From NCBI RefSeq assembly GCF_017348835.2, contig NZ_CP071375.1: 64,000 bases of DNA; one strand, 5' to 3'. Of the stretch, positions 5,232-49,075 are shown in pieces. The position numbers and the translations under genes are program-made. Origin of the DNA: Escherichia coli (lineage in GTDB: Bacteria; Pseudomonadota; Gammaproteobacteria; Enterobacterales; Enterobacteriaceae). Within the stretch, counting starts at the first letter, position 1, and the number at the start of each line of letters is the position of its first letter. The notes under the pieces are model-generated. The model made no database searches. It was not told where the DNA came from and saw only the letters and a list, made by a program, of their open reading frames with translations.

Positions 5232-6631
5232 AGTTCTGGCGACCCGGTATTACCGGCAAACTGTTTCTGGCGATTTTCGCCACCTGCATTGTCTTGCTGA
5301 TCAGTATGCACTGGGCGGTGCGTATCAGTTTTGAGCGTGGCTTTATTGATTACATCAAGCATGGTAATGAACAGCGATTACAACTGTTAAGTGATGCGCT
5401 TGGCGAGCAGTATGCGCAGCATGGCAACTGGCGCTTCCTGCGCAACAATGATCGCTTTGTCTTTCAGATCCTGCGTTCATTTGAACACGATAATTCGGAA
5501 GATAAACCCGGCCCGGGTATGCCACCACACGGCTGGCGTACTCAGTTCTGGGTGGTTGATCAAAACAACAAGGTGCTGGTTGGTCCGCGAGCGCCGATTC
5601 CACCTGACGGTACACGGCGACCCATTCTGGTCAACGGTGCGGAAGTGGGCGCGGTGATTGCCTCCCCCGTTGAGCGGCTGACCCGCAATACTGATATCAA
5701 TTTCGATAAACAACAGCGGCAAACCAGCTGGCTGATTGTCGCCCTGGCAACGTTACTCGCGGCGCTCGCCACCTTTCTGCTGGCGCGTGGTCTTTTGGCC
5801 CCGGTCAAACGGCTGGTGGACGGCACGCACAAACTGGCGGCGGGCGATTTCACAACCCGCGTGACGCCCACCAGTGAAGATGAACTGGGCAAACTGGCGC
5901 AAGACTTCAACCAGCTTGCCAGCACGCTGGAGAAAAACCAGCAAATGCGGCGCGATTTTATGGCCGATATTTCTCACGAACTGCGTACGCCATTAGCGGT
6001 GCTGCGCGGTGAACTAGAAGCTATTCAGGATGGCGTGCGCAAATTCACGCCGGAGACGGTGGCGTCTTTACAGGCGGAGGTCGGTACACTGACCAAACTG
6101 GTTGACGATCTTCATCAGTTGTCGATGTCTGATGAAGGCGCTCTCGCCTATCAAAAAGCACCGGTAGATTTGATCCCACTGCTGGAAGTGGCGGGCGGCG
6201 CATTTCGCGAACGATTCGCCAGCCGTGGCCTGAAACTGCAATTTTCCCTGCCAGACAGTATTACCGTATTTGGCGATCGCGACCGTTTAATGCAGTTGTT
6301 CAATAATTTACTGGAAAACAGCCTGCGCTACACTGACAGCGGCGGCAGCCTGAAAATCTCTGCCGAGCAGCACGACAAAACGGTGCGCCTGACCTTTGCC
6401 GACAGTGCGCCAGGTGTCAGTGACGATCAGCTACAAAAATTGTTTGAACGTTTTTATCGCACCGAAGGTTCCCGCAACCGTGCCAGCGGCGGTTCCGGGC
6501 TGGGGTTGGCGATTTGCCTGAACATTGTTGAAGCACATAATGGCCGCATTATTGCTGCCCATTCGCCTTTTGGCGGGGTAAGCATTACAGTAGAGTTACC
6601 GCTGGAACGGGATTTACAGAGAGAAGTATGA
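5228..6631 (+). CDS. baeS: Envelope-stress sensor histidine kinase BaeS (467 aa)
   Basis: ATGA overlap with mdtD stop; H-box motif ISHELRTPL and HATPase C-terminal motifs in translation. Confidence 0.92.
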
Positions 6632-7350
6632 CCGAGTTACCAATCGACGAAAACACACCGCGTATTTTGATCGTGGAAGATGAACCGAAGCTGGGGCAGT
6701 TGCTCATTGATTATCTGCGTGCTGCGAGCTATGCGCCGACGCTTATCAGCCACGGCGATCAGGTACTGCCGTATGTGCGCCAGACACCACCGGATCTGAT
6801 CCTGTTGGATCTGATGCTCCCTGGCACCGATGGCTTGACGCTGTGCCGGGAAATTCGTCGTTTTTCTGACATTCCTATCGTGATGGTCACGGCAAAAATC
6901 GAAGAGATCGACCGCCTGCTCGGACTGGAGATTGGCGCAGATGATTATATCTGTAAGCCGTACAGCCCACGGGAAGTGGTAGCGCGCGTCAAAACCATTT
7001 TGCGCCGTTGCAAACCGCAGCGTGAGTTGCAGCAACAGGATGCTGAAAGCCCGTTGATTATCGACGAAGGTCGTTTTCAGGCTTCATGGCGCGGTAAAAT
7101 GCTTGACCTGACGCCTGCGGAATTTCGTCTGCTGAAAACGCTCTCTCACGAACCAGGAAAAGTGTTCTCCCGCGAGCAATTGCTCAATCATCTTTATGAC
7201 GACTACCGCGTAGTAACCGACCGCACCATCGACAGCCACATTAAAAACCTGCGCCGCAAGCTGGAATCTCTCGACGCCGAACAGTCATTTATCCGCGCCG
7301 TTTACGGCGTTGGTTACCGCTGGGAAGCCGACGCCTGCCGCATCGTTTAG
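6628..7350 (+). CDS. baeR: OmpR-family response regulator BaeR (240 aa)
   Basis: ATGA overlap with baeS stop; receiver domain (ILIVEDEP...D) plus winged-helix C-terminus. Confidence 0.92.
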
Positions 7351-8116: not shown

Positions 8117-8368
8117 ATGGCCAGAACGATGACGGTTGATCTCGGCGATGAGTTGCGTGAATTTATCGAGTCCTTAATTGAATCCGGCGACTATCGCACC
8201 CAAAGCGAAGTGATCCGTGAGTCACTGCGCTTACTTCGAGAAAAGCAAGCAGAGTCTCGCCTGCAAGCGTTACGTGACATGCTTGCAGAAGGGTTGAGTA
8301 GTGGTGAAGCTCAGCCGTGGGAAAAGGACGCGTTTTTACGGAAGGTGAAAGCAGGGATAAGGAAATAA
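8117..8368 (+). CDS. ParD-family (ribbon-helix-helix, COG3609-like) type II antitoxin (83 aa)
   Basis: AGGAGAG RBS at 8103-8109; translation carries the ParD-like motif GDYRTQSEVIRESLRLL; stop 1 nt before toxin start. Confidence 0.75.
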   Translation: MARTMTVDLGDELREFIESLIESGDYRTQSEVIRESLRLLREKQAESRLQALRDMLAEGLSSGEAQPWEKDAFLRKVKAGIRK

Positions 8369-8369
8369 T

Positions 8370-8666
8370 GTGCGTATTATTAAACTCATGCCAAAAGCCA
8401 ATGAGGATTTAGAAGGCATCTGGTATTACAGTTATCACCATTTCGGCGAACCACAAGCCGACAGATATGTGGAACATCTTTCAGACGTTCTCCAGATTCT
8501 GAGTAACAATAATATAGGTACGCCCAGACCTGAATTAGGCGAAGGTATTTTTGTTCTTCCTTTTGAACGCCACGTAATTTATTTCCTGCAATCACCAGGG
8601 GAAATTATCGTCATTCGTACCCTTAACCAAAACCAGGACGCCACCAGACATTTACACTGGAGCTAA
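8370..8666 (+). CDS. ParE/RelE-superfamily type II toxin (98 aa from GTG 8370; alternative ATG at 8388)
   Basis: Small protein with ParE-like conserved pattern (DL..I..Y...FG...A..Y......L..L...P..G.P...LG.G.....F.RHVIYF......I.VIR.L....D); tightly coupled to the upstream antitoxin gene. Confidence 0.72.
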   Translation: MRIIKLMPKANEDLEGIWYYSYHHFGEPQADRYVEHLSDVLQILSNNNIGTPRPELGEGIFVLPFERHVIYFLQSPGEIIVIRTLNQNQDATRHLHWS

Positions 8667-10130: not shown

Positions 10131-10214
10131 TTAATTTCGATTATTTTTCCCGGATGGAAAATTCTTAGAAACCGATCACATACAGCTGCATTTATTAAGG
10201 TTATCATCCGTTTC

Positions 10215-10301
10215 GCTGAAAAACATAACCCATAAAATGCTAGCTGTACCAGGAACCACCTCCTTAGCCTGTGTAATCTCCCTTACACGGGCTTATTTTT
10301 T
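10215..10301 (+). ncRNA. cyaR: CRP-dependent Hfq-binding sRNA CyaR (RyeE)
   Basis: Sequence GCTGAAAAACATAACCCATAAAATGCTAGCTGTACCAGGAACCACCTCCTTAGCC... ending in a hairpin and T-run matches my memory of CyaR, including the CCTCCTT anti-SD-like seed; located downstream of yegQ as in E. coli. Confidence 0.85.
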
Positions 10302-11183: not shown

Positions 11184-12083
11184 ATGGCAGAATTTCCCGC
11201 CAGCTTACTGATTCTTAATGGCAAAAGTACTGACAATCTACCCTTGCGCGAAGCAATTATGCTGTTGCGTGAGGAAGGAATGACGATCCATGTGCGGGTC
11301 ACCTGGGAGAAAGGCGATGCCGCACGATATGTAGAGGAGGCCCGGAAGTTGGGCGTCGCAACGGTGATTGCCGGTGGTGGCGATGGCACCATTAATGAAG
11401 TTTCTACGGCGTTGATTCAGTGTGAGGGGGATGACATACCCGCGCTGGGAATTTTGCCATTAGGAACCGCCAATGATTTTGCCACCAGTGTAGGGATTCC
11501 TGAGGCACTGGATAAGGCGCTGAAACTGGCAATTGCCGGTAACGCCATTGCGATAGATATGGCGCAGGTCAACAAACAAACCTGTTTTATTAATATGGCG
11601 ACAGGCGGATTTGGGACGCGTATTACCACAGAAACGCCGGAAAAATTAAAAGCCGCGCTGGGTGGCGTCTCTTATATCATTCATGGCTTAATGCGCATGG
11701 ATACTCTGCAACCGGACCGTTGTGAAATCCACGGTGAAAACTTTCACTGGCAAGGTGACGCCCTGGTCATTGGTATTGGTAACGGGCGTCAGGCCGGTGG
11801 CGGTCAACAATTGTGCCCGAACGCGTTAATTAACGATGGCTTGCTGCAACTGCGCATTTTTACCGGCGATGAAATTCTTCCGGCTCTCGTATCAACCTTA
11901 AAATCTGACGAAGATAACCCGAATATTATCGAAGGCGCTTCGTCGTGGTTTGATATACAAGCCCCACACGAAATCACTTTTAATCTTGATGGCGAACCGT
12001 TGAGTGGGCAAAACTTCCATATTGAAATACTTCCGGCGGCGTTGCGTTGTCGATTACCACCAGATTGTCCATTATTGCGTTAA
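11184..12083 (+). CDS. yegS: Lipid kinase YegS (299 aa), DAGK-catalytic-domain family
   Basis: 299-aa ORF; GGDGT motif of the diacylglycerol kinase catalytic domain family. Confidence 0.88.
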
Positions 12084-12121
12084 TCAAACTATTCTCTCTT
12101 GAACCAGGGAGAATCCGTAAT

Positions 12122-12156
12122 GCCGGATGCGGTGTAAACACCTTATCCGGCATACA
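12122..12156. repeat. REP (repetitive extragenic palindrome) element
   Basis: GCCGGATGCGGTGTAAACACCTTATCCGGCATAC matches the E. coli REP consensus; lies in the yegS-gatR intergenic space. Confidence 0.65.
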
Positions 12157-12164
12157 GAACAATA

Positions 12165-12944
12165 CTACACCGTAATTAATTTTACCCGTGTCTTCTGCAA
12201 TGCCAGTTTATCCACCTCTGACACGGCATCATCGGTAATAATAATGTCAATTTTTTCGATTGGCAGTACCTGATTAAAACCGCGACGATTAAATTTCGAT
12301 GAATCGAGAACGGCAATCACTTTATTTGCGGCGGTGACCATCGCCCCGCTAATCGAATAACCTTCATTAAAGGTCGTAATACCATTAACCGCATCAATAC
12401 CATCAGCACCGACAAACATTAAATCGGCATTAATATCCTGCAATGAACGCTCGGCAATGGAACCATGCATCGAGCGCGTTTTATGGCGGACCGTGCCACC
12501 ACAGACGACCAGAGTAATGTCTTTATTTTCGGAAAGGGCAAACGCTGCCGGGAGACTGTTGGTAATCACCGTGATATTTTTGGCGGTCATTAATCCTTCG
12601 GCGATAAGCATTGTCGTACTTCCGCTGTCGAGAATAACGGTCATCCCTTCGTGGATCATTTTGACTGCCGCCTGCGCTATTCTGTTTTTTGGCGCGCTGG
12701 CGAGCTGAAATCGCTCTTTAAACCCGACTTCCTGGGTCTCGGTTTCACTATTACCGGACATTATTTTCGCCGCACCGCCATGAAAGCGCGTAACCACGCC
12801 TTTTTGTTCGAGAAAGCGCAAATCGGCACGGATTGTCGCTTCCGAGGCAGCAAATACTCCCGCCAGATCCTGAACAAGCACGGTTCCCTGTTCATTCACT
12901 AATTGGATGATCTTATTCCTTCGCTCGAATGAATTCATCGTCAT
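12165..12944 (-). CDS. gatR: DeoR-family galactitol operon repressor GatR, uninterrupted (259 aa)
   Basis: Continuous 259-aa ORF with N-terminal HTH and C-terminal DeoR sugar-binding domain; no IS sequence inside. Confidence 0.85.
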   Translation of the reverse strand: MTMNSFERRNKIIQLVNEQGTVLVQDLAGVFAASEATIRADLRFLEQKGVVTRFHGGAAKIMSGNSETETQEVGFKERFQLASAPKNRIAQAAVKMIHEGMTVILDSGSTTMLIAEGLMTAKNITVITNSLPAAFALSENKDITLVVCGGTVRHKTRSMHGSIAERSLQDINADLMFVGADGIDAVNGITTFNEGYSISGAMVTAANKVIAVLDSSKFNRRGFNQVLPIEKIDIIITDDAVSEVDKLALQKTRVKLITV

Positions 12945-13043
12945 TTACCCATATTCAATTGTGGCTAGTGTAAACGAAGGGGGACCATTGGTGAATGATC
13001 TGTTTTGCACAATACCGGGCCAGCATCACGCTGGCCCGCGGTT

Positions 13044-14084
13044 TCAGGGAATGAGCAACACTTTGCCCGGCATAGCATTACGAGCGATGTCACGCACCGC
13101 CTGGGCGAAGCATTCAAAGCTTCCACGGTGAGCGATTAATGGCTCCAGGCTTAACTTACGTTCTGTCAGCAACCGGCTCGCCGTTTCCCACTCCTGCCCC
13201 GGCCAAGGGCTGGAGTAGTTCATCCAACTGCCGATAACCGTCAGCTCTTTACGCAATATTTTGCCAAACGTTGCCGATGTTAAATGCAGATCCTGATGCA
13301 ACGTCCCCACCAGCGCCAGTTGGGCATGAGGACCGGCAATCTCTACCGCCAGTTCCACAGTTTGCGGTACGCCAGCCGTCTCGAGGATAAGCTGATTAAA
13401 GCGCAGCTCGCGTAAAACGCCCTGCATTTGCGGCGCGCTCATTTCGCTACTGTTAAATGTTTGCATCGCACCGAAAGATTTTGCCAGTGCCAGTTTTTCT
13501 GAGCTAATGTCGATCGCCGTCACACTCTTTGCTCCCAGCGCGACAGCGCACTGAATAGCCAGCAGACCAATGGTTCCGGCACCAATAATAATAACGTTTT
13601 TATTCTCACAACCTTGCGCTAAATGAAAAGCATGCAGGCCAACGGTAATCGGTTCAATAAAAGCCCCATCCTCAATAGGCATATCCGTGGGTAGAGCAAA
13701 GACATTTTTCCGCTTAACGACAATATATTCGGCAAATCCACCATCACGCCGTGAGCCAATAAAATCATATTTTGCGCACTGGGAATAAAACCCTTTCAGA
13801 CACTCTGGACAAGTAAAACAAGGTAATAACGGCACACAGGCAACCGCATCGCCAGGGTGTAAATCATCAACACCGGATCCCACCACATCAATATAGCCGC
13901 TAAATTCATGGCCTAACGTTATTGGATAATAATGTGCACCATTTTTAAATATCCTGGGTAAATCGGAACCACATAAGCCCGAGCTGGCAATTTTTACCCG
14001 CACCTCATCCTGATGTTTAATTTCAGGAATGACGCTTTCTGCAACGCGCACGATACCATCAGTATCATTCACCACTGATTTCAT
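13044..14084 (-). CDS. gatD: Galactitol-1-phosphate 5-dehydrogenase GatD (346 aa)
   Basis: Zn-dependent alcohol dehydrogenase family motifs (GHEFSG, GAGTIGL); synteny. Confidence 0.92.
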   Translation of the reverse strand: MKSVVNDTDGIVRVAESVIPEIKHQDEVRVKIASSGLCGSDLPRIFKNGAHYYPITLGHEFSGYIDVVGSGVDDLHPGDAVACVPLLPCFTCPECLKGFYSQCAKYDFIGSRRDGGFAEYIVVKRKNVFALPTDMPIEDGAFIEPITVGLHAFHLAQGCENKNVIIIGAGTIGLLAIQCAVALGAKSVTAIDISSEKLALAKSFGAMQTFNSSEMSAPQMQGVLRELRFNQLILETAGVPQTVELAVEIAGPHAQLALVGTLHQDLHLTSATFGKILRKELTVIGSWMNYSSPWPGQEWETASRLLTERKLSLEPLIAHRGSFECFAQAVRDIARNAMPGKVLLIP

Positions 14085-14131: not shown

Positions 14132-15487
14132 TTATTCTGCGAGAACGGTTTTCTCTTGTTTAATAAAACCACGCGCTCTACGCCAGGTCATGAAAATACC
14201 GGTCAGATAAATTGCGCCGATAATAATGAAACCGGGAATATTTTGCGGGGAGAAAACCTGAATCAGTAACCAGGTAATGGGAGAACCGCCCTGATCCATT
14301 GAAGCCACCATACCCCCGGCTTTTAACGCCCCAGCATTAGCCGCCAGTTGGGTGTGCAAACCAATAGTTTGCGTCGCGATCCACAGGGTGATGCTCATAA
14401 TGATGACACCCGAGATTAAGGTGCGGAACAGATTTCCACGATGCACCGCGACCGCCATCGCCACGAAGAAGCCGATAGTGGCAAGATCGCCAAACGGCAG
14501 CACCTGATTACCCGGCACACAAACAGCAATTAAAATGGTGAGCGGGATAAAAATCAGGCTTGCCGATACCACCGCCGTATGCCCCAGCAGTAATGCGGGA
14601 TCCAGGCCAATCAGGAACTCCTGACCGCCGAACTTCGCCTGTAAACGACTACGGGCCTGCTTAGCGATGGGCGTTAAACCATCCATGATGGGTTTAATCA
14701 CCCGTGGCATTAGCAGCATCACCGCCGCCGTTTTTACCGCCAGCTGCAATACACCTTTGACATCGTAACCCGCGAGGATGCCGATAATCAGCCCCATCAC
14801 AAAACCCACGGTGACAGGCTCGCCAAAAGGGCCAAATTTGCGCTGAATATCATCGGCGCTAAATTTAATTCGGTTAACGCCTGGGATTTTCTCGATAATG
14901 GCATCGACCAGCACCGCAATCGGCCCCATATACGCCGACGTACCGTGCGGAATAGCAATGCCTTCCAGCTCAAAGAAATTTCGGGTATCGCGGGCAAACC
15001 AGTCGCCGAGCTTATAAACAAACGCCGCGTGAATTACCACACCCGCCATCCCTATCATCCATGAACCGGTTGCCAGGTGCAGCAACGCGCCGGTGAAGGT
15101 CATATGCCAGATATTCCAGATATCAACATTTACCACCCGCGTCATACGGGTCAGTAACATCGCCACGTTAACCAGAATCGCAATCGGAATCGCCACCAGC
15201 GCAATTTGCGACGCCCAGGTCATTGGTGAAGAGCCCGGCCAGCCAACATCGACCACATGCAGATTCAGGTCGAAATTTTCCGCCATCGCTTTCGCCGCCG
15301 GACCAATGGAATCCAGCATTAAGCCAATCACAAGGCCAATGCCAACAAAGCCAATCCCGATATGCAGACCCGCTTTAAAGCAATCGCCTGCCTTCATGCC
15401 TAATATTTTAGAAAAAATAATGATGACAATCGGCAGCATCACCGTAGGGCCGAGATCGAGAATATAACGCATGACTTCTGAAAACAT
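14132..15487 (-). CDS. gatC: PTS galactitol-specific EIIC GatC (451 aa)
   Basis: 451-aa polytopic membrane protein; synteny in gat operon. Confidence 0.92.
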   Translation of the reverse strand: MFSEVMRYILDLGPTVMLPIVIIIFSKILGMKAGDCFKAGLHIGIGFVGIGLVIGLMLDSIGPAAKAMAENFDLNLHVVDVGWPGSSPMTWASQIALVAIPIAILVNVAMLLTRMTRVVNVDIWNIWHMTFTGALLHLATGSWMIGMAGVVIHAAFVYKLGDWFARDTRNFFELEGIAIPHGTSAYMGPIAVLVDAIIEKIPGVNRIKFSADDIQRKFGPFGEPVTVGFVMGLIIGILAGYDVKGVLQLAVKTAAVMLLMPRVIKPIMDGLTPIAKQARSRLQAKFGGQEFLIGLDPALLLGHTAVVSASLIFIPLTILIAVCVPGNQVLPFGDLATIGFFVAMAVAVHRGNLFRTLISGVIIMSITLWIATQTIGLHTQLAANAGALKAGGMVASMDQGGSPITWLLIQVFSPQNIPGFIIIGAIYLTGIFMTWRRARGFIKQEKTVLAE

Positions 15488-15490
15488 AGG

Positions 15491-15775
15491 TCACCCCTGT
15501 AAGATAGTCAGAATTTTATTTTGTAATGCTTCGATACCGACACCAGAAACAAAAGGCATGCCGTGAACTAACGGAATATCGCCAAAACTACGATCCACCC
15601 TGGCAGTGGTACATATCAAATGCACACCATCCATATAGGTTTCTATTTCATTAACCCGACACTGGATTAATTCAACAGGAATATTATGACTCTGACACAA
15701 CTCTTTAATTTCTTCCGCCGCCATCGTAGAGGTCGCAACCGCGCCTCCGCAAGCGACAATAATCTTGCGTTTCAT
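15491..15775 (-). CDS. gatB: PTS galactitol-specific EIIB GatB (94 aa)
   Basis: 94-aa ORF with N-terminal active-site Cys ([10 protein letters not shown]); synteny. Confidence 0.92.
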
Positions 15776-15805
15776 AAATAGTCCTTTTTATTGTTACAGA
15801 GGGAT

Positions 15806-16258
15806 TTATTCGTCTGAATCTAAAACATACTTTGTGAAGTATTCCTTTAACTGGGTTTCAGGAAGAGTGATTAGTGTCTCGACGATATCGGGCTGTTGTA
15901 ACTTGCCAAATAAACAGCGTAAAAGTTTCAATTGCTGCTGCGGATTTTCCACAATCAACGCAATAACCAACGATACCGCCACGTCGTTATCATCATCCGC
16001 TTGCTGAAAATGAACTTTATTTGTTGGCCTTAACAGATAAATGGCTGACGACTTAGCATGAATCGCCTCACAATGCGGTATTGCAATGGCGTGCTGCTCA
16101 AGCATTATCCCGGTAGGGAATTCTGCTTCTCTGGCAATTAATGCCTGTGGCCAGGTATCATGAACCACACCTTTCGCGAGCATCTCATTACCGATATGGG
16201 TTAAAACTTCGCTACGATCGACAAAAGAAATTCCGCTACGAACAAACAGGTTAGTCAT
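15806..16258 (-). CDS. gatA: PTS galactitol-specific EIIA GatA (150 aa)
   Basis: 150-aa ORF; synteny. Confidence 0.92.
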   Translation of the reverse strand: MTNLFVRSGISFVDRSEVLTHIGNEMLAKGVVHDTWPQALIAREAEFPTGIMLEQHAIAIPHCEAIHAKSSAIYLLRPTNKVHFQQADDDNDVAVSLVIALIVENPQQQLKLLRCLFGKLQQPDIVETLITLPETQLKEYFTKYVLDSDE

Positions 16259-16267
16259 ATACCGTCC

Positions 16268-17530
<1,263 letters not shown>

Positions 17531-17531
17531 A

Positions 17532-18467
<936 letters not shown>

Positions 18468-18530
18468 TTAAATGTCGAGATAACGATCACAAAAACGACA
18501 ATATGAAAAATTGTTCGAGGAGTGAAAGGC

Positions 18531-18560
18531 AAAAAAAACGGCCTCCCGATAGGGAAGCCG
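18531..18560 (-). terminator. Rho-independent terminator downstream of fbaB and its REP cluster
   Basis: On the minus strand, hairpin cggcttccc-tatc-gggaggccg followed by an 8-nt U-run. Confidence 0.6.
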
Positions 18561-18583
18561 TAGCAAAGTGCGCGTTATTTTAT

Positions 18584-18698
18584 GCCGGATGCAGTGTAAA
18601 CATACGTGGCAGCGCTGTGTAGGCATGATAAGACGCTTCAGCGTCGCATCAGGCATAGGTTGCCGGATGCAGCGTAAACGCCTTATCCGTCCTACGGG
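18584..18698. repeat. BIME: cluster of three REP elements
   Basis: GCCGGATGCAGTGTAAACATACGTGGC / GTAGGCATGATAAGACGCTTCAGCGTCGCATCAGGCAT / GCCGGATGCAGCGTAAACGCCTTATCCGTCCTACG are typical REP consensus variants in alternating orientation. Confidence 0.75.
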
Positions 18699-18722
18699 GT
18701 GGTGTTGTTCGTATAAGGCGTA

Positions 18723-26511: not shown

Positions 26512-26645
26512 AGTTTGCTCCTGCCATAACGTGAAGAAGCAATGACCTGGTGGTCCGTGACTTCCCTACGCTGGCATTATCCAGATCAGGTGATACGGGT
26601 ATTTCTCAGCCTTCACGCAGAAGGGCACCCCGAGTCGTTTGGTTG
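26512..26645 (-). promoter_or_regulatory. TPP (thi-box) riboswitch in the thiM 5' leader
   Basis: Minus-strand sequence CGACTCGGGGTGCCCTTCTGCGTGAAGGCTGAGAAATACCCGTATCACCTGATCTGGATAATGCCAGCGTAGGGAAGTC followed by the SD-sequestering platform and ATG matches the classical thiM aptamer. Confidence 0.9.
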
Positions 26646-35515: not shown

Positions 35516-37549
35516 ATGACTCAAGTCGCGAAGAAAATTCTGGTGACGTGCGCACTGCCGTACGCTAACGGCTCAATCCACCTCGGCCATATGCTGGAGC
35601 ACATCCAGGCTGATGTCTGGGTCCGTTACCAGCGAATGCGCGGCCACGAGGTCAACTTCATCTGCGCCGACGATGCCCACGGTACACCAATCATGCTGAA
35701 AGCTCAGCAGCTTGGTATCACCCCGGAGCAGATGATTGGCGAAATGAGTCAGGAGCATCAGACTGATTTCGCAGGCTTTAACATCAGCTATGACAACTAT
35801 CACTCGACGCACAGCGAAGAGAACCGCCAGTTGTCAGAACTTATCTACTCTCGCCTGAAAGAAAACGGTTTTATTAAAAACCGCACCATCTCTCAGCTGT
35901 ACGATCCGGAAAAAGGCATGTTCCTGCCGGACCGTTTTGTGAAAGGCACCTGCCCGAAATGTAAATCCCCGGATCAATACGGCGATAACTGCGAAGTCTG
36001 CGGTGCGACCTACAGCCCGACTGAACTGATCGAGCCGAAATCGGTGGTTTCTGGCGCCACCCCGGTAATGCGTGATTCTGAACACTTCTTCTTTGATCTG
36101 CCCTCTTTCAGCGAAATGCTGCAGGCATGGACCCGCAGCGGTGCGTTGCAGGAGCAGGTGGCAAATAAAATGCAGGAGTGGTTTGAATCTGGCCTGCAAC
36201 AGTGGGATATCTCCCGCGATGCCCCTTATTTCGGTTTTGAAATTCCGAACGCGCCGGGCAAATATTTCTACGTCTGGCTGGACGCACCGATTGGCTATAT
36301 GGGTTCTTTCAAGAATCTGTGCGATAAGCGCGGCGACAGCGTAAGCTTCGATGAATACTGGAAGAAAGACTCCACCGCCGAGCTGTACCACTTCATCGGT
36401 AAAGATATTGTTTACTTCCACAGCCTGTTCTGGCCTGCAATGCTGGAAGGCAGCAACTTCCGCAAGCCGACCAACCTGTTTGTTCATGGCTATGTGACGG
36501 TGAACGGCGCGAAGATGTCTAAGTCTCGCGGTACCTTTATTAAAGCCAGCACCTGGCTGAATCATTTTGACGCCGACAGCCTGCGTTACTACTACACTGC
36601 GAAACTCTCTTCGCGCATTGATGATATCGATCTCAACCTGGAAGATTTCGTTCAGCGCGTGAATGCCGATATCGTTAATAAAGTGGTTAACCTGGCCTCT
36701 CGTAATGCGGGCTTTATCAACAAGCGTTTTGACGGTGTGCTGGCAAGCGAACTGGCTGACCCGCAGTTGTACAAAACCTTCACTGATGCCGCTGAAGTGA
36801 TTGGTGAAGCGTGGGAAAGCCGCGAATTTGGTAAAGCAGTGCGCGAAATCATGGCGCTGGCTGACCTGGCTAACCGATATGTCGATGAACAGGCTCCGTG
36901 GGTGGTGGCGAAACAGGAAGGCCGCGATGCCGACCTGCAGGCAATTTGCTCAATGGGCATCAACCTGTTCCGCGTGCTGATGACTTACCTGAAACCGGTA
37001 CTGCCGAAACTGACCGAGCGTGCAGAAGCATTCCTCAATACAGAACTGACCTGGAATGGTATCCAGCAACCGCTGCTGGGCCACAAAGTGAATCCGTTCA
37101 AGGCGCTATATAACCGCATCGATATGAAGCAGGTTGAAGCACTGGTGGAAGCGTCTAAAGAAGAAGTGAAAGCAGCTGCCGCGCCAGTTACTGGCCCACT
37201 GGCAGATGATCCGATTCAGGAAACCATCACCTTTGACGACTTCGCCAAAGTTGACCTGCGCGTGGCGCTGATTGAAAACGCAGAGTTTGTTGAAGGTTCT
37301 GACAAACTGCTACGCCTGACGCTGGATCTCGGCGGCGAAAAGCGTAATGTCTTCTCCGGCATTCGTTCTGCTTACCCGGATCCGCAGGCACTGATCGGGC
37401 GTCACACCATTATGGTGGCCAACCTGGCGCCACGTAAAATGCGCTTTGGTATCTCCGAAGGCATGGTAATGGCTGCTGGTCCTGGCGGGAAAGATATTTT
37501 CCTGTTAAGCCCGGATGCTGGTGCTAAACCAGGCCATCAGGTGAAATAA
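35516..37549 (+). CDS. metG: Methionyl-tRNA synthetase MetG (677 aa)
   Basis: HLGH (as HIGH-class motif) and KMSKS motifs; Zn knuckles CPKC/CEVC; start at MTQVAKK. Confidence 0.95.
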
Positions 37550-37558
37550 TCCCCCTTC

Positions 37559-37588
37559 AAGGCGCTGCATCGACAGCGCCTTTTCTTT
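37559..37588 (+). terminator. Rho-independent terminator of metG
   Basis: Hairpin AAGGCGCTG-catcga-CAGCGCCTT followed by TTTTCTTT. Confidence 0.8.
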
Positions 37589-37689
37589 ATAAATTCCTAA
37601 AGTTGTTTTCTTGCGATTTTGTCTCTCTCTAACCCGCATAAATACTGGTAGCATCTGCATTCAACTGGATAAAATTACAGGGATGCAGA

Positions 37690-40600
37690 ATGAGACACTT
37701 TATCTATCAGGACGAAAAATCACATAAATTCTGGGCGGTTGAGCAACAGGATAATGAGCTTCATATTAGATGGGGTAAAGTCGGTACTAACGGGCAAAGT
37801 CAGATAAAAAGTTTTTCAGATGCTGCTGCAGCGGCAAAAGCGGAGCTTAAGCTGATCGCAGAGAAAACGAAAAAAGGCTATGTGGAAAATGCTTCAGCAA
37901 ACGTGCATATCTCCCCCATCACCAAAGCCACTCCTGAAGTTGAAACTTCCCCTGAGAGTAAAAACCAACGCCCGTGGCTGGCTGATGATGCAGTTATTCC
38001 GGTAACTGACGATATTAACCGATTTGCTTTTCCTCATCGCTCTCGCCCCAGAGAGATCAATTATCTGCGCAAAGACGGTGAGATATGGAAGCGTATTGCA
38101 GATAACACCAGGGCATATGATCCCGACAACAATTACCGCTCTTATCCTGAAAACTGGCAGCAGGCTTTTGCTGAGTTACAAAGGCGAATTCTGGATAATC
38201 AACAGACAGGGAGTGCGCAATCTGATGCAGCATTGCTCTGGAGTTTTTGGAACTCTTACTCTGCAGATGAACTGGTCGATGACTTAGTCATTCGCTGTGG
38301 TCTGGAAAGCGCCGTTGAAATCGCCCTTTTTGCCCTTCAACTCAAATATAAACCAGTAAAAGGCGCAGTAACCACCATCATTCCACCTAATCACGAAGCA
38401 GAATCGCTACCTAGTTGGCATCAACGTCTATGTCATCATCTTTCACTCGCTTCAGAAGATGAGTGGCAACGCTGTGTAGATAAAGTACTCACCGCCATTC
38501 CGACGCTATCCCCCGCACGGCAACCTTTTGCGGCGCTACTGCTCCCTGAACGCCCGGATATCGCCCATGCTATAGCTCTACGCTATGCAGACCAAAACGT
38601 CCCGGCGATCACCTGGTTAAGTATGATGGTAAGCGATGATGTTGCCCTGGCCATCCAGGAAATATATGGTTTCCCACCGCTATATAATGATTTCCGCAAA
38701 TATCTGGCTACGTTGCTGGCAAATAATGGAATGCGTGGTGTAAGCCGGATTCTTCTCAAGCTACCTGTCGACTATCCCGTAAAATACACGGACCTTTTCA
38801 CTCACATACACGCCAATGCTGAAGATCTTGTCAAATGGCTATGGAAAACGAATCACCCGGATGCGATTCAAATTCTGATCCTCGGTGTAAATGGCAAGAA
38901 AAAGCACCTGGAATACTTAAGCAAAGCCTGCCAAAAACATCCCGCTGCGGCTATTGCCGCTTATGCTACTTTGCTGGCAATACATGAAAATAATGAGTGG
39001 CGTAAAGCGCTTGTCAAACTGATTACTGCCACGCCAGAGTTAGTATGCGAGGTCATTCCCTGGGTTAATGCTAAGGCGGCAGGCATCTTATCTGAATGTC
39101 GTCCGCTGCCAGTAGCTGAAGAATGTGAATATGCCACTGTGGATATGTTGCCGGAGCTGCTTGTCGCTCCACCGTGGATAATAAATAAGAAAAAGAATGT
39201 CATACCCGTATTTGATTTACCGGTACTTCCCATTCCTGCCGTCACGGATATCACACCAGGAATTACAGAGTTAATCAGTCATACTGACATATCCAGATTC
39301 AGTGAAATCGCGCAATATCAGGCATCACAGCAAACCTTATTTACCGATCTGCCACTAATTGAAAAAGAAAGCTGGGAGACATCTTTCATTCCTTTTACAC
39401 CAGAACAACAAATCCTTTGGCAATTAGGTTTTAATGAATGGCTGCATTGCGAAAATGACTTACATGAAAAAAAATATATACCGCAAAGCGCTGTTGATGC
39501 CTTGTTGCGCTTTGATTTTCCAGCACTAAAAGCTGAGTTTGCGAAATATCACAACAATGCCAACAAAAGCTGGAATCTATCTGCGCTTTGTTACTTACCG
39601 GGACAACAGGCGATCTCATTTCTCAACCAAATAATCATTGAGGAGCGATATTCAGGTGAGAAAGAGATTCTGGCGGTTTTTGGTAGTACGGCCATTCCTG
39701 CGTTTATGACCTGCTTGCAACGAGATCATCAACGCCTGTGGATATTCACCCTTTTTATTGGAGCCAGTGAACTAGCCTTACCAATGGCGCAGCGGTTACA
39801 GAAAAAAATGGGTTACAAGGATGCCGTTAATTGGCTGGCAAATAACCCGCGCCATGCCGCCGCCGGGCTACTGCCTTTGGCGCTGGGCAAACCGTGCCAA
39901 AATCGGGAATATGCCCGCCAGGCACTCCTCCTGCTAGTGAAATTAAACCAGCGAGAAACGATTGAGGAAATCACCCAAGGATATAATCAACCTGATGTTT
40001 TAGCTGCGCTGGCAACATTATTTGATAGCGACCCACTGGAAGAATATCCTGCAAAAATCGCCCCACTGCCCGGCTTTTATCAGTTCCCCTTATGGCGCAG
40101 ACCTCGGCTTAAAAGTAACAACCTGCCTCTGCCAGATGACACTATGCGCCACCTCGGCACAATGTTGAGCTTTCCACGCGACATTACCTCCTACGCTGGG
40201 CTGGCGATCATCAAAGAGACCTTCACCCGCGAATCACTGGCTGACTTTGGCTGGGATCTCTACACGGCATGGACAGAAGCTGGCGCACCCGCAAAAGAGA
40301 ACTGGGCATTTACCTCGCTGGGGATTCTAGGCAATGACGACACCGCGCGTAAACTAACCCCGCTCATCCGCGCCTGGCCGGGTGAATCCCAGCATAAACG
40401 CGCGGTTTACGGGCTGGATGTGTTAGCCAGTATCGGTAGCGACATTGCGCTTATGTTGCTTAATGGCATTGCGCAAAAGATTAAATTCGTTGCATTACAG
40501 GAACATGCCAGCGACAGAATCAATATGGTCGCCGAAAATCGCGGACTGACAATGGCCGAACTGGAAGATCGCCTGGCGCCGGATTTAGGGCTTGATAGCA

Positions 40601-41490
40601 GTGGCTCGCTGATACTGGATTTCGGCCCCCGCAAATTCACCGTTGGTTTTGACGAAACCTTAAAACCTGTAGTGTGCGATGCAAACGGCAAAGTCCTGAA
40701 AGATTTACCTAAGCCAAACCAGAGCGATGATAAAACACTGGCAACTGACGCAGTTAATCTCTTCAAACAGTTGAAAAAAGATGTTCGTGCTATCGCCAGC
40801 CAGCAAATTACCCGTCTGGAACAGGCTATGTGCCAGCGCAGACGCTGGACGGCAGAGCAGTTCCGCCTGTTTCTGGTGGAGCATCCGCTGGTACGTCACT
40901 TAACCCGACGGCTGTTATGGGGAGTATATACTGAGGAAAACACGCTGATTGCCTGCTTCCGGGTCGCAGAAGATAGCACTTACAGCGATGCGCAGGAAGA
41001 GCTATTCACGTTACCAGCAGGAAACATCGGTATTCCGCATGTGCTGGAAATATCCCCTGAATCCGCCGCTGCATTCAGGCAAATTTACGCTGATTACGAA
41101 CTGCTTCCCCCTTTCCAACAGCTCGAGCGAGGTAGCTATCACCTTGCTGATAATGAACGTAATACTCACGAACTGACACGCTGGCAAGGACGGCTTTGCC
41201 AGGCCGGACGCATTGTCGGGCTGGAACGCCGAGGCTGGCAACGTCTGGAAGAAAGCGGCAGCGTTTATGCGATGCGCAAAACAACCCCTCATGGCGATCT
41301 CGAACTTGAAACGGAACCTTTTTCATTAATTTATGGTGAAACGGGGTATGGCGACCAGCTACCGGTTGAAAGCGTAAAAATCACCTCGCCAGATGATCGC
41401 TACGGTAAACAATCCTCACTCACTTTCTCCATGCTCGACGACATCACCGCCAGCGAGCTGATTAACGACATCGAATCACTGTTTGATTAA
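37690..41490 (+). CDS. molR: MolR-like large protein, paralog 1 (1266 aa): N-terminal WGR domain + long DUF4132-type body
   Basis: N-terminus MRHFIYQDEKSHKFWAVEQQDNELHIRWGKVGTNGQSQ is a WGR-domain signature; remainder recognised as the YehI/MolR family; apparently intact here. Symbol assignment is from memory and tentative. Confidence 0.7.
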   Translation: MRHFIYQDEKSHKFWAVEQQDNELHIRWGKVGTNGQSQIKSFSDAAAAAKAELKLIAEKTKKGYVENASANVHISPITKATPEVETSPESKNQRPWLADDAVIPVTDDINRFAFPHRSRPREINYLRKDGEIWKRIADNTRAYDPDNNYRSYPENWQQAFAELQRRILDNQQTGSAQSDAALLWSFWNSYSADELVDDLVIRCGLESAVEIALFALQLKYKPVKGAVTTIIPPNHEAESLPSWHQRLCHHLSLASEDEWQRCVDKVLTAIPTLSPARQPFAALLLPERPDIAHAIALRYADQNVPAITWLSMMVSDDVALAIQEIYGFPPLYNDFRKYLATLLANNGMRGVSRILLKLPVDYPVKYTDLFTHIHANAEDLVKWLWKTNHPDAIQILILGVNGKKKHLEYLSKACQKHPAAAIAAYATLLAIHENNEWRKALVKLITATPELVCEVIPWVNAKAAGILSECRPLPVAEECEYATVDMLPELLVAPPWIINKKKNVIPVFDLPVLPIPAVTDITPGITELISHTDISRFSEIAQYQASQQTLFTDLPLIEKESWETSFIPFTPEQQILWQLGFNEWLHCENDLHEKKYIPQSAVDALLRFDFPALKAEFAKYHNNANKSWNLSALCYLPGQQAISFLNQIIIEERYSGEKEILAVFGSTAIPAFMTCLQRDHQRLWIFTLFIGASELALPMAQRLQKKMGYKDAVNWLANNPRHAAAGLLPLALGKPCQNREYARQALLLLVKLNQRETIEEITQGYNQPDVLAALATLFDSDPLEEYPAKIAPLPGFYQFPLWRRPRLKSNNLPLPDDTMRHLGTMLSFPRDITSYAGLAIIKETFTRESLADFGWDLYTAWTEAGAPAKENWAFTSLGILGNDDTARKLTPLIRAWPGESQHKRAVYGLDVLASIGSDIALMLLNGIAQKIKFVALQEHASDRINMVAENRGLTMAELEDRLAPDLGLDSSGSLILDFGPRKFTVGFDETLKPVVCDANGKVLKDLPKPNQSDDKTLATDAVNLFKQLKKDVRAIASQQITRLEQAMCQRRRWTAEQFRLFLVEHPLVRHLTRRLLWGVYTEENTLIACFRVAEDSTYSDAQEELFTLPAGNIGIPHVLEISPESAAAFRQIYADYELLPPFQQLERGSYHLADNERNTHELTRWQGRLCQAGRIVGLERRGWQRLEESGSVYAMRKTTPHGDLELETEPFSLIYGETGYGDQLPVESVKITSPDDRYGKQSSLTFSMLDDITASELINDIESLFD

Positions 41491-41502
41491 AAGGATTTAA
41501 CA

Positions 41503-44500
41503 ATGAAAACCTATATTTATCAGGACGAAAAATCACATAAATTCTGGGCGGTGGAGCAGCAGAGAAACGAGCTGCATATTACCTGGGGTAAAGTCGGCAC
41601 TAACGGGCAAAGTCAGGTAAAAAGCTTTGCAGATGCTGCGGCGGCGGAAAAAGCGGAACTGAAGCTGATTGCGGAGAAGGTGAAGAAGGGGTATGTGGAG
41701 CAAGTAGACGCTAACGCTCACTCACATGATGCCTCAGCAAAGAAAGTCCTGGTCACAGAGGAAAAAGCCTCAATAAATCACCAGGCAGCAACTAATGGTT
41801 TACCCTGGCTGGCAGATAACGATCCCATTATTCTTCCCCCGAATATTGCCCGCCATGCCCTCAGCCACCGCCTTTGGCCGGGAGAGCCAGTAAAAAAGCC
41901 AACCAAACCCGAGAAACAAAATTTAATTTCCCGATTGGCAAATCGTACTTATCATTATTATAAAAATCTGACTTTCGATTACAGCTCATGCTCTGATGAA
42001 TGGGCTGATGCGATTAGCCAGGCAATCAGCTTAATTAAGGCCCAAAAGACTGAGATACCCGCGCGTACTATGGCGGTACTTACTTTTCTGGAAATATGTT
42101 TTTGTCAGGGCTGGAATGATGAAACCTCACCCGAGTTGCTGGATGAAATTGTAAGCACCTTCGGTATCGAATACGCAACTGAAACTGTCATCTTCTGGTG
42201 GCAAATTGATTTCGATTTTGACTATAAAGATGAACATTTGACTTTCTTTATTAATTATGGAGATAGCAGCAAGGACAGTTATAGAAGGAATAACGACAAA
42301 TTTAGTTTACGTCTGCGTAAACATTTATCACTAGCAGAAGAAGAAGTATGGCAAAATTGCATTGCAAAATTACTCGTTGCGTTACCAGATATATCACTCT
42401 ATCGCCAACCGTTAATTGCCATTTTAATGCCAGAAATACCCGAAGTGGCCCATGAGATCGTACATCGTTTACACCAGGTCGCAGATGTTCCACAACTTGA
42501 AATGTTGAAACTGGTAGCGACAGATCCATTCACGCTCGAAATACTGGAGAACTATCAATACATTGATGTATTTAACACCTATGGTGCCAGTTGGTCAGCT
42601 ACGGTATTACGGGAGCAAGGTATAGCGGCACTGGCTCGCCTGGCTCCCTATGCTGAAGAAGATAATTGCGGTGACGTACTGAAATGTATTAATCATCCGT
42701 TGGCCATTACGGCACTCATCGAAGCCGCCGATACTAATAAACGCTGTTATGAACGACTAATAAAAAGTGCCGAAAATTTTCCTTCTGCAACGATAGTGGC
42801 ATTAGCCGAAGCATTGGTAAAAAAAGATGATAAACGCAAACATATGTTGCTGGTTTCATTACTTAATGCAAATCCTTTATTGGTCGAAAAATTAGTCATC
42901 GGATTATCGTCGCAAGCGGCAAATTTATTGCAACAATGTCAGCAATTGCTGAATAGTCGCAATGAAGATTTTGCAAACTCAGAAATTCTACCAATGGTAC
43001 TAGTCTCGCCGCCCTGGGAAACTCAAAATAAAAATAACGACAACAGTCCTGTGGGTAAATACCCGGCGAAAATCCCCCCTTTGCCGTTGTTTTATCAACC
43101 TCCATTATGGACTCGCCCGAAACTCAAAAATAGCAGCAAGGTACTGCCAGATAGCGCCCTCCTCCACCTCGGTGAAATGCTCCGCTTCCCTCAGGAAGAG
43201 GCTCTGTATCCGGGATTATTGCAGGTGAAAGATGCCTGTACCGCCGACTCACTGGCTGAATTTGCCTGGGATCTGTTTACCGCCTGGCTGACTGCGGGCG
43301 CACCGTCGAAAGAGAGTTGGGCGTTCACTGCGTTAGGCGTTCTTGGTAACGATGACACCGCTCGCAAACTGACGCCATTAATCCGCGCCTGGCCTGGTGA
43401 ATCCCAGCATAAACGCGCCACCGTCGGGCTTGATATCCTCGCCGCTATCGGTAGTGATATCGCCCTGATGCAGCTTAACGGCATTGCTCAGAAACTGAAA
43501 TTCAAAGCTTTACAGGAGCGGGCGAAAGAGAAAATTGCCGACATTGCTGAAAGCCGCGAACTCACGGTGGCGGAGCTTGAAGATCGGTTAGCACCAGATC
43601 TCGGTCTGGATGATAACGGTTCGTTGCTGCTGGATTTCGGCTCACGCCAGTTCACCGTCAGCTTTGATGAAACCTTAAAACCGTTTGTGCGTGATGTTTC
43701 TGGCAGCCGTCTGAAAGACCTGCCCAAACCAAACAAAAGCGATGATGAATCACAGGCGAACGATGCTGTTAACCGCTACAAACTGCTGAAAAAAGATGCG
43801 CGTACCGTCGCCGCCCAGCAGGTAGCAAGGCTGGAATCCGCCATGTGCCTGCGTCGCCGCTGGTCACCGGAAAACTTTCAGCTCTTCCTGGTTGAGCATC
43901 CGCTGGTTCGCCACTTAACCCGCCGTCTGATTTGGGGCGTTTATAGCGCCGAAAACCAGCTGCAGGCTTGCTTTCGCGTAGCGGAAGATAACAGCTACAG
44001 CACCGCTGACGATGATCTTTTCACCCTGCCGGAAGGCGATATCTCTATTGGTATTCCTCACGTTCTGGAAATATCACCGACGGATGCTGCCGCCTTTGGT
44101 CAGCTTTTTGCCGACTACGAACTGTTACCACCGTTCCGCCAGCTTGACCGTAACAGTTACGCCCTGACAGAAGCCGAGCGCAACGCCAGCGAACTGACCC
44201 GCTGGGCAGGCAGAAAATGCCCGAGCGGTCGGGTAATGGGGCTGGCGAATAAAGGCTGGATAAAGGGCGAACCACAGGATGGAGGCTGGATCGGCTGGAT
44301 GATCAAACCTCTGGGCCGCTGGTCGTTAATCATGGAAATCGATGAAGGCTTTGCAGTGGGTATGTCACCAGCCGAACTTAGCGCTGAGCAGCTCTTAAGC
44401 AAGCTGTGGCTATGGGAAGGCAAAGCGGAAAGCTATGGCTGGGGGAGTAATTCAACACAGGAAGCGCAGCTCTCCGTACTCGATGCCATCACCGCCAGCG

Positions 44501-44535
44501 AGCTAATTAACGATATTGAAGCCCTGTTTGAATAA
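41503..44535 (+). CDS. MolR/YehI-family paralog 2 (1010 aa): WGR domain + DUF4132-type body lacking an internal segment of about 240 aa
   Basis: N-terminal WGR nearly identical to paralog 1; conserved C-terminal motif ITASELINDIEALFE; internal module absent relative to paralogs 1 and 3. Confidence 0.7.
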   Translation: MKTYIYQDEKSHKFWAVEQQRNELHITWGKVGTNGQSQVKSFADAAAAEKAELKLIAEKVKKGYVEQVDANAHSHDASAKKVLVTEEKASINHQAATNGLPWLADNDPIILPPNIARHALSHRLWPGEPVKKPTKPEKQNLISRLANRTYHYYKNLTFDYSSCSDEWADAISQAISLIKAQKTEIPARTMAVLTFLEICFCQGWNDETSPELLDEIVSTFGIEYATETVIFWWQIDFDFDYKDEHLTFFINYGDSSKDSYRRNNDKFSLRLRKHLSLAEEEVWQNCIAKLLVALPDISLYRQPLIAILMPEIPEVAHEIVHRLHQVADVPQLEMLKLVATDPFTLEILENYQYIDVFNTYGASWSATVLREQGIAALARLAPYAEEDNCGDVLKCINHPLAITALIEAADTNKRCYERLIKSAENFPSATIVALAEALVKKDDKRKHMLLVSLLNANPLLVEKLVIGLSSQAANLLQQCQQLLNSRNEDFANSEILPMVLVSPPWETQNKNNDNSPVGKYPAKIPPLPLFYQPPLWTRPKLKNSSKVLPDSALLHLGEMLRFPQEEALYPGLLQVKDACTADSLAEFAWDLFTAWLTAGAPSKESWAFTALGVLGNDDTARKLTPLIRAWPGESQHKRATVGLDILAAIGSDIALMQLNGIAQKLKFKALQERAKEKIADIAESRELTVAELEDRLAPDLGLDDNGSLLLDFGSRQFTVSFDETLKPFVRDVSGSRLKDLPKPNKSDDESQANDAVNRYKLLKKDARTVAAQQVARLESAMCLRRRWSPENFQLFLVEHPLVRHLTRRLIWGVYSAENQLQACFRVAEDNSYSTADDDLFTLPEGDISIGIPHVLEISPTDAAAFGQLFADYELLPPFRQLDRNSYALTEAERNASELTRWAGRKCPSGRVMGLANKGWIKGEPQDGGWIGWMIKPLGRWSLIMEIDEGFAVGMSPAELSAEQLLSKLWLWEGKAESYGWGSNSTQEAQLSVLDAITASELINDIEALFE

Positions 44536-44544
44536 GGAAAGAGC

Positions 44545-48664: not shown

Positions 48665-48754
48665 TTACTTCAACAAATCAATCAACCGTAACAGAGCTAC
48701 TAATAGCTCCAGTACAGCAATGAGCACGGTTAACTTTTGTGTCAGCGTGTCCAT
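48665..48754 (-). CDS. zorO: Type I toxin, ShoB/Zor-like small hydrophobic peptide (29 aa: MDTLTQKLTVLIAVLELLVALLRLIDLLK)
   Basis: Not in the ORF track (below size cutoff). ATG with AGGAGA SD 4 nt upstream; single predicted TM helix with charged C-terminus; about 175-nt 5' UTR; divergent antisense sRNA upstream. Symbol from my recollection of the EHEC zorO-orzO locus, unverified. Confidence 0.65.
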   Translation of the reverse strand: MDTLTQKLTVLIAVLELLVALLRLIDLLK

Positions 48755-48935
48755 CCGCTCTCCTTATTAAGGAGCGCAACACCAGCACCTTACCCTTACA
48801 CTGCCTGTCGATACTGGTTTACGTATGTTGGACCACGATGTTGCACTCCGGATCAGGGCACCACCTGCAGCACCACCCGTCCGGTAGCCAGGACTTGAAA
48901 TAGGTTCGATCCGGCGCAACGTCCCAACGGTCTGG

Positions 48936-48992: not shown

Positions 48993-49075
48993 GTTGGAAC
49001 ACGATGTTGCACAGGCTGTGGTGTTAGGCCTGAAAATAGTAAATAAAAGAACCTGCCTCACCAGCAGGTTTTTTT
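48993..49075 (+). ncRNA. orzO: Antitoxin sRNA (OrzO/OhsC-like) divergent from the toxin gene
   Basis: Short transcript bounded by the promoter and a rho-independent terminator (CCTGC-ctcacca-GCAGG + T7 at 49053-49075); its first 20 nt (48993-49012) repeat 48827-48846 within the toxin 5' UTR with 19/20 identity, giving antisense complementarity. Confidence 0.6.

What the first reader, a model, noticed from the sequence alone, without database searches (positions are those of the whole stretch)
12165..12944. gatR is uninterrupted (no IS element), unlike my recollection of K-12
The DeoR-type repressor gene is a continuous 259-codon ORF. In K-12 I recall gatR being split by an IS3 insertion, which makes the gat operon constitutive there. 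Together with the gatY nonsense codon, this strain's galactitol regulon state differs from the lab reference in two ways.
Basis: partly seen in the sequence, partly recalled or inferred. Interest (0 to 1): 0.3.

Follow-up and report, generated by a model that had tools for sequence, protein, structure and literature searches.

The report
Intact galactitol repressor gene gatR
[quoted passage not shown] The laboratory strain K-12, whose copy is split by an IS3 element, is the exception, so the finding is correct but ordinary.

Summary
Window 12165..12944 (- strand) is one continuous 259-codon ORF; NCBI's PGAP pipeline starts it two codons later, giving 257 aa. It has the full DeoR architecture (HTH_DeoR plus DeoRC) and lies between gatD and yegS, as gatR does.

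In a K-12 derivative, gatR is split by a 1258-bp IS3 with a 3-bp target duplication (GTC = window 12640-12642, codons 99/100). Removing the IS and one GTC in silico gives a protein 100% identical to the window's GatR; all 11 nucleotide differences are synonymous.

Intact is the norm:
- 5109 of 5426 complete E. coli genomes carry gatR.
- 4756 of them have it in one piece.
- 346 carry the K-12 gatR::IS3 junction; those listed are laboratory K-12 lineages.

Published work already describes the K-12 lesion and its constitutive gat expression.

The companion claim also holds. gatY carries Q141* (CAG to TAG, 17991-17993). This allele is rare: 3 of 5093 genomes.

The window is 99.997% identical to pig isolate PE164.

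Verdict: already known, low interest. Probable state: a repressible gat operon whose first gene is a pseudogene. The phenotype was not tested.

The parts
12165..12944 (-). gatR, galactitol operon repressor of the DeoR/GlpR family. It is a continuous ORF of 259 codons plus stop; the PGAP-style start is at 12938 (257 aa).
   Evidence: ORF list; PE164 annotation; Pfam and NCBIfam matches; 100% amino-acid identity to reconstructed K-12 GatR.
12765..12923 (-). N-terminal DeoR-type helix-turn-helix DNA-binding domain (residues 8-60 in 259-aa numbering).
   Evidence: Pfam PF08220, E = 1.3e-16; coordinates converted by me.
12231..12692 (-). C-terminal DeoRC sensor (effector-binding) domain (residues 85-238).
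   Evidence: Pfam PF00455, E = 2.5e-51; PDB 7l6l DeoR C-terminal domain, E = 1.9e-11.
12640..12642 (.). GTC: the site that is duplicated and occupied by the 1258-bp IS3 in K-12. It is unoccupied here and lies in codons 99/100 (257-aa numbering), at the start of the DeoRC domain.
   Evidence: Junction sequences in L001 compared with the window; codon mapping; the BLAST alignment of K-12 breaks at query position 743 = window 12642.
12945..13043 (-). gatD-gatR spacer, presumed to hold gatR's own promoter. It contains a G+C-rich hairpin just after the gatD stop and is 100% identical to K-12.
   Evidence: Alignment. The promoter itself was not located: the scan gave no hit in the spacer.
13044..14084 (-). 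gatD, galactitol-1-phosphate 5-dehydrogenase, intact.
   Evidence: 3 amino-acid differences from K-12.
14132..16258 (-). gatC (14132-15487), gatB (15491-15775) and gatA (15806-16258): galactitol PTS components IIC, IIB and IIA, all intact.
16268..17530 (-). gatZ, tagatose-bisphosphate aldolase subunit, intact.
   Evidence: 9 amino-acid differences from K-12.
17559..18413 (-). gatY pseudogene. Codon 141 is TAG instead of CAG (Q141*) at 17991-17993; the rest of the gene is colinear with K-12 gatY.
   Evidence: Codon-by-codon comparison with K-12; PGAP note 'internal stop' in PE164; the exact 61-mer occurs in only 3 of 5093 genomes.
18414..18722 (-). fbaB-gatY spacer holding the gatY promoter and operator region and REP-type repeats (an Rfam naRNA4 match at 18622-18692). 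It is close to K-12, with a few SNPs and two 1-bp indels.
   Evidence: Alignment; repeats; Rfam. Operators were not mapped.

Best explanation
The window carries the ordinary wild-type allele of gatR, the DeoR-family repressor of the galactitol (gat) operon.

Shown here:
- The gene is complete and has both family domains.
- It sits in the canonical gatYZABCD-gatR-yegS arrangement.
- Its protein is identical to the K-12 gene with the IS3 removed, and is the commonest GatR sequence in public data.

Inferred from family knowledge and the cited papers:
- GatR binds operators at the gatY promoter through its N-terminal helix-turn-helix and keeps gatYZABCD off.
- A galactitol-derived effector bound by the C-terminal DeoRC domain releases it, so the operon is inducible here rather than constitutive as in K-12.

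The operon it controls carries a rare nonsense mutation in its first gene (gatY Q141*). The predicted state is therefore 'regulated but crippled'. Galactitol uptake and the first oxidation step remain encoded, while the dedicated tagatose-1,6-bisphosphate aldolase catalytic subunit is truncated. That predicts poor or no growth on galactitol. The paralogue KbaY, intact in the near-identical strain PE164, might substitute.
For: - Continuous ORF.
- HTH_DeoR and DeoRC domains with full-length coverage.
- Synteny with gatD and yegS.
- 257/257 identity to reconstructed K-12 GatR; all 11 nucleotide differences are synonymous.
- 256/257 identity to Nissle 1917 GatR, with 20 synonymous differences against 1 non-synonymous. 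This pattern indicates purifying selection.
- The exact protein is seen on at least 1000 contigs and is named 'galactitol utilization operon repressor' by its sources.
- It is intact in 4756 of 5109 gatR-bearing complete genomes. The K-12 junction occurs in 346 genomes.
- The gatD-gatR spacer is identical to K-12.
- Literature: silencing gatR is beneficial in natural isolates LF82 and CFT073 in mice, which implies that intact gatR represses there; in MG1655 gatR is broken by IS3E (bioRxiv 10.64898/2026.01.05.697630). The gat operon is constitutive or elevated in K-12 (PMC4072538; PMC3045373).
- gatY Q141*.
- kbaY is intact in PE164.
Against: - No expression or binding data exist for this strain. 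Repression and inducibility are inferred, not shown.
- The true start codon (12944 or 12938) is unverified.
- The gatR promoter and the GatR operators were not located. The promoter scan gave only three hits, all inside the gene, against 1.8 expected by chance, and none in the spacer.
- The gatY upstream region differs from K-12 by a few SNPs and two 1-bp indels whose effect is unknown.
- The primary paper (Nobelmann and Lengeler 1996) could not be read.
Confidence: 0.9

Rival explanations
1. gatR is intact in sequence but is a leftover. With gatY knocked out, the whole gat locus is decaying in this small lineage, and gatR simply has not been hit yet.
For: gatY Q141* is shared by three related complete genomes (PE164, F2_81, ERP001), so the lesion is inherited rather than a sequencing error. 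Loss of gat function is repeatedly selected in the mouse gut (PMC3945185). About 317 complete genomes lack gatR altogether.
Against: [quoted passage not shown] GatR has no amino-acid change from the commonest allele. A single point mutation is recent on this timescale and is revertible.
Confidence: 0.25
2. The intact ORF encodes a non-functional or differently specific regulator, despite looking like GatR.
For: None specific. NCBIfam has no GatR equivalog model, so the best scores go to the paralogue models AgaR and SrlR, below their cut-offs. PGAP therefore names the gene only 'DeoR/GlpR family'.
Against: 100% identity to the K-12 gatR fragments, the same genomic position, and sources that name it galactitol operon repressor. 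Scores below the AgaR and SrlR cut-offs (232.9 against 260; 226.3 against 350) show that it is neither of those.
Confidence: 0.03
3. The apparent difference from K-12 is an assembly artefact: an IS element collapsed out of this sequence.
For: None.
Against: The site reads straight through with a single GTC and no IS ends. 4756 independent complete genomes show the same uninterrupted structure. The window matches a finished chromosome at 63998 of 64000 bases.
Confidence: 0.01

Closest known systems
E. coli K-12 gatR::IS3 (IS3E) pseudogene (MG1655, W3110, DH5-alpha and C600 lineages)
   Same: It is the same gene at the same locus. After in-silico removal of the IS and one GTC, the protein is 257/257 identical, and the gatD-gatR spacer is identical.
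   Different: K-12 has a 1258-bp IS3 with a 3-bp GTC duplication at the position of window 12640-12642, splitting the gene into pieces of 100 and 158 codons. The window has no insertion. K-12 is reported to express gat constitutively. The window strain is predicted to be repressible.
GatR of natural E. coli isolates (for example Nissle 1917; LF82 and CFT073 in the literature)
   Same: Full-length 257-aa protein, 256/257 identical to Nissle 1917 (I196V), with the same gene order. gatR behaves as an active repressor in LF82 and CFT073.
   Different: Nissle 1917 has an intact gatY; the gatY status of LF82 and CFT073 was not checked. The window has gatY Q141*.
Paralogous DeoR-family sugar repressors AgaR, SrlR (GutR), GlpR and DeoR
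   Same: The same two-domain architecture and length, with end-to-end alignment to the AgaR and SrlR models. The presumed mechanism is the same: an operator-binding repressor released by a sugar or sugar-phosphate effector.
   Different: Scores fall below the curated equivalog cut-offs, so it is a distinct orthologous group. It is linked to the gat operon rather than to the aga, srl or glp operons.

Membership tests
DeoR/GlpR family transcription regulators | N-terminal DeoR-type helix-turn-helix domain | tested here: met
   PF08220 at residues 8-60, E = 1.3e-16, 60.5 bits against a cut-off of 21.
DeoR/GlpR family transcription regulators | C-terminal DeoRC sensor domain; total length about 250 aa | tested here: met
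   PF00455 at residues 85-238, covering 5-159 of 160 model positions, E = 2.5e-51. Length is 257 or 259 aa.
GatR (galactitol operon repressor) orthologues | Encoded directly downstream of gatD at the end of gatYZABCD, next to yegS | tested here: met
   The gene order yegS, gatR, gatD, gatC, gatB, gatA, gatZ, gatY, fbaB is seen in the window and in PE164, K-12 and Nissle 1917.
GatR (galactitol operon repressor) orthologues | Sequence identity to the gatR of reference strains | tested here: met
   257/257 to reconstructed K-12; 256/257 to Nissle 1917; sources name the exact sequence 'galactitol utilization operon repressor'.
GatR (galactitol operon repressor) orthologues | Represses gatYZABCD and is relieved by galactitol | not testable with these tools
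   This needs expression or binding assays. Support comes only from the literature on other strains.
K-12-type gatR::IS3 null allele | IS3 inserted at the GTC site in codons 99/100 | tested here: not met
   The window reads ...AACGGTCATCCC... without interruption. The junction 60-mer occurs in 346 genomes; those listed are laboratory K-12 lineages.

The most novel reading that the evidence does not exclude
The rare gatY Q141* allele, sitting under an intact GatR in a small, mainly pig-associated clade (PE164, F2_81, ERP001), could be a naturally selected loss of galactitol catabolism. That would parallel the gat-negative sweeps seen when K-12 colonises mice. It would also show that selection against gat function can act even when the operon is properly repressed. 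Alternatively, the lesion could make the strain galactitol-sensitive through accumulation of phosphorylated intermediates.
Probability: 0.2. Interest if true: 0.2.

Novelty: already known. Interest (0 to 1): 0.05.

Why it matters
It matters little beyond annotation. It is a reminder that K-12 is a poor reference for gat regulation. The IS3 in gatR is a laboratory-lineage lesion, found in 346 of 5426 complete genomes, whereas natural isolates carry a highly conserved, intact repressor. For this strain it sets expectations: gat genes should be off without galactitol, and the rare gatY nonsense codon, not gatR, is the feature that could change its galactitol (dulcitol) phenotype.

Tried and rejected
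- Nobelmann and Lengeler 1996 (PMC178577), the primary description of gatR and its IS, is not held, so K-12 constitutivity is cited from later papers.
- The promoter and terminator scan of 12050-13150 was uninformative. It gave three weak promoter-like hits, all inside the coding sequence, against 1.8 expected, and no terminators.
- The repeat search found nothing in the gatD-gatR spacer. In the gatY upstream region it found only REP-type repeats and one weak inverted repeat (71% complementary), so I do not claim any operators.
- A literature search on gatY, galactitol and sensitivity returned nothing directly relevant to the toxicity of gatY loss.
- The window is not identical to any complete RefSeq genome. 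The best matches are PE164 (2 mismatches in 64 kb) and F2_81.
- The idea that gatR might be subtly damaged is rejected: it has no amino-acid difference from the commonest allele.
- The idea of an assembly artefact is rejected for the reasons given under the rival explanations.

Full report
**Observation.** The ORF list shows a single open reading frame at window 12165..12944 on the minus strand. It starts with ATG and encodes 259 aa beginning MTMNSFERRNK (sequence read). In strain PE164, which is almost identical, NCBI's PGAP pipeline starts the gene at the second ATG (window 12938). This gives 257 aa, WP_001295426.1, 'DeoR/GlpR family DNA-binding transcription regulator'. Both versions exist in public protein collections on at least 1000 contigs each, and some sources name them 'DeoR family galactitol utilization operon repressor'. 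Which start codon is used remains open.

**What it is.**
- Pfam finds HTH_DeoR at residues 8-60 (E = 1.3e-16) and DeoRC at residues 85-238 (E = 2.5e-51, 5-159 of 160 model positions).
- NCBIfam models of the paralogues AgaR and SrlR align end to end (2-256 of 256; 1-252 of 253). Their scores fall below the equivalog cut-offs, as expected for a distinct orthologue.
- The only solved relative by sequence is the DeoR C-terminal domain, 7l6l.
- The gene lies directly downstream of gatD and converges on yegS. Upstream come gatC, gatB, gatA, gatZ, gatY and fbaB. This is the canonical gat locus.

**Source of the window.** It matches E. coli PE164 (a pig isolate from China; NZ_CP114128.1, 1687823-1751822, reverse strand) at 63998 of 64000 bases. 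The two mismatches are at 48784 and 49446, far from gat. No complete RefSeq genome is identical. F2_81, also from a pig, is equally close in the region tested.

**Comparison with K-12.**
- In NEB5-alpha (a DH5-alpha derivative), the annotation shows a C-terminal gatR fragment, an 'IS3-like element IS3 family transposase', and then an N-terminal gatR fragment.
- Reading the junctions shows a 1258-bp element with inverted ends TGATCTTACC...GGTAGGATCA, flanked by a duplicated GTC. The same GTC occurs once in the window at 12640-12642.
- This site lies in codons 99/100 (257-aa numbering), at the start of the sensor domain.
- Removing the IS and one GTC gives a 257-aa protein identical to the window's GatR. 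The two genes differ at 11 of 774 nucleotides, all synonymous.
- The gatD-gatR spacer is identical in the two strains.

**How unusual is an intact gatR?** It is not unusual. Among 5426 complete E. coli genomes:
- 5109 carry gatR, and 4756 have at least 80% of it in one alignment.
- A 60-base probe across the K-12 gatR/IS3 junction is found whole in 346 genomes. The examples listed are laboratory K-12 lineages such as ER1709 and C600.
- This figure matches the 348 extra alignment places seen with the gene probe.
- About 317 genomes lack gatR altogether.

GatR of Nissle 1917, an isolate distinct from both K-12 and the window strain, is 256/257 identical (I196V). It shows 20 synonymous differences against 1 non-synonymous, which points to strong purifying selection.

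**Literature.**
- Several papers state that gatR of MG1655/K-12 is broken by IS3E and that the gat operon is therefore constitutive or highly expressed: PMC4072538, PMC3045373, PMC9189660 and bioRxiv 10.64898/2026.01.05.697630.
- PMC3045373 adds that the K-12 strain NCM3722 lacks the disruption.
- The bioRxiv study reports that silencing gatR benefits the natural isolates LF82 and CFT073 in mice. This implies that intact gatR actively represses in such strains.
- The primary paper by Nobelmann and Lengeler (1996) is not held.

**The gatY claim.**
- Aligned codon by codon with K-12 gatY, the window gene is colinear over 284 codons but has TAG in place of CAG at codon 141 (window 17991-17993, minus strand). 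There are also four missense differences.
- PGAP marks the PE164 gene 'internal stop'.
- A 61-base probe centred on the stop matches exactly in only 3 of 5093 genomes: PE164, F2_81 and ERP001. Of the rest, 5085 fall in the 95-99% band, and every listed hit there is 98.4%, which is one mismatch.
- The lesion is therefore real, inherited and rare.
- The other gat genes are full length with few substitutions.
- In PE164 the aga/kba cluster is complete with an intact kbaY, a paralogous tagatose-bisphosphate aldolase that might substitute when induced. This is a proxy genome, and the compensation is an inference.

**Mechanism.**
- Shown: gene integrity, domain architecture, synteny and identity to the common allele.
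- Inferred from family knowledge and the cited papers: GatR binds operators near the gatY promoter and is released by a galactitol-derived effector, so gat is inducible here rather than constitutive.
- Also inferred: with GatY truncated at residue 140 of 284, galactitol would still be taken up, phosphorylated and oxidised, but tagatose-1,6-bisphosphate would not be cleaved by the dedicated enzyme. That predicts a galactitol-negative or galactitol-sensitive phenotype. The early nonsense codon might also reduce expression of the downstream genes through polarity.
- I could not locate the gatR promoter or the operators.

**Verdict.** The window carries the wild-type state, and K-12 is the exception. 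The more distinctive feature of the locus is the rare gatY nonsense allele. Interest is low.

Noticed in passing
window 17991-17993 (- strand), within gatY 17559-18413: gatY Q141* (CAG to TAG). The exact allele occurs in only 3 of 5093 complete E. coli genomes (PE164, F2_81, ERP001). The other gat genes are intact.
   Followed up: yes
window 48665-48754 (-) and 49000-49075 (+): A type I toxin-antitoxin locus lies between yehK and yehL: a 29-aa ZorO-like toxin ORF (MDTLTQKLTVLIAVLELLVALLRLIDLLK) and an Rfam OrzO-P antitoxin RNA (99.9 bits). By my recollection this system is known from O157:H7 and is absent from K-12. One of the two SNPs against PE164 (48784) lies next to it.
   Followed up: partly
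window 8117-8666 (+): A ParD/ParE-type toxin-antitoxin pair sits between yegP and yegQ. PGAP calls the antitoxin 'frameshifted' in PE164, yet an 83-aa ORF starting MARTMTVDLGDEL is intact in the window. K-12 has yegQ directly after yegP here.
   Followed up: no
window 10213-10298 (+) and the yegQ-yegR spacer: CyaR (RyeE) sRNA, 100.7 bits. This strain lacks the ogrK / P2 late-control-D remnant that K-12 carries between yegQ and yegR.
   Followed up: no
window 18622-18692 (-): An Rfam naRNA4 (REP-derived nucleoid-associated RNA) match lies in the fbaB-gatY spacer, among several REP-like repeats.
   Followed up: no
window 26546-26642 (-): A TPP riboswitch lies ahead of thiMD, as annotated in PE164.
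   Followed up: no
window about 37000-48000; repeats at 37701-37886 and 41514-41699: Three tandem DUF4132 genes (the yehI family) are all annotated as intact in PE164. They share a segment that is 86% identical between paralogues. By my recollection the K-12 counterpart (molR) is a fragmented pseudogene.
   Followed up: no
L003 (K-12 NEB5-alpha) 5599-7082: The K-12 comparator strain carries a second lesion in the gat operon: an IS5 inserted in gatB. This is presumably specific to the DH5-alpha lineage.
   Followed up: no
L007 (PE164 590000-605000): The near-identical strain PE164 has a complete aga/kba cluster (agaR, kbaZ, agaVWEF, nagA, agaS, kbaY, agaBCD, agaI). By my recollection this cluster is partly deleted in K-12. 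kbaY could back up the lost GatY.
   Followed up: partly
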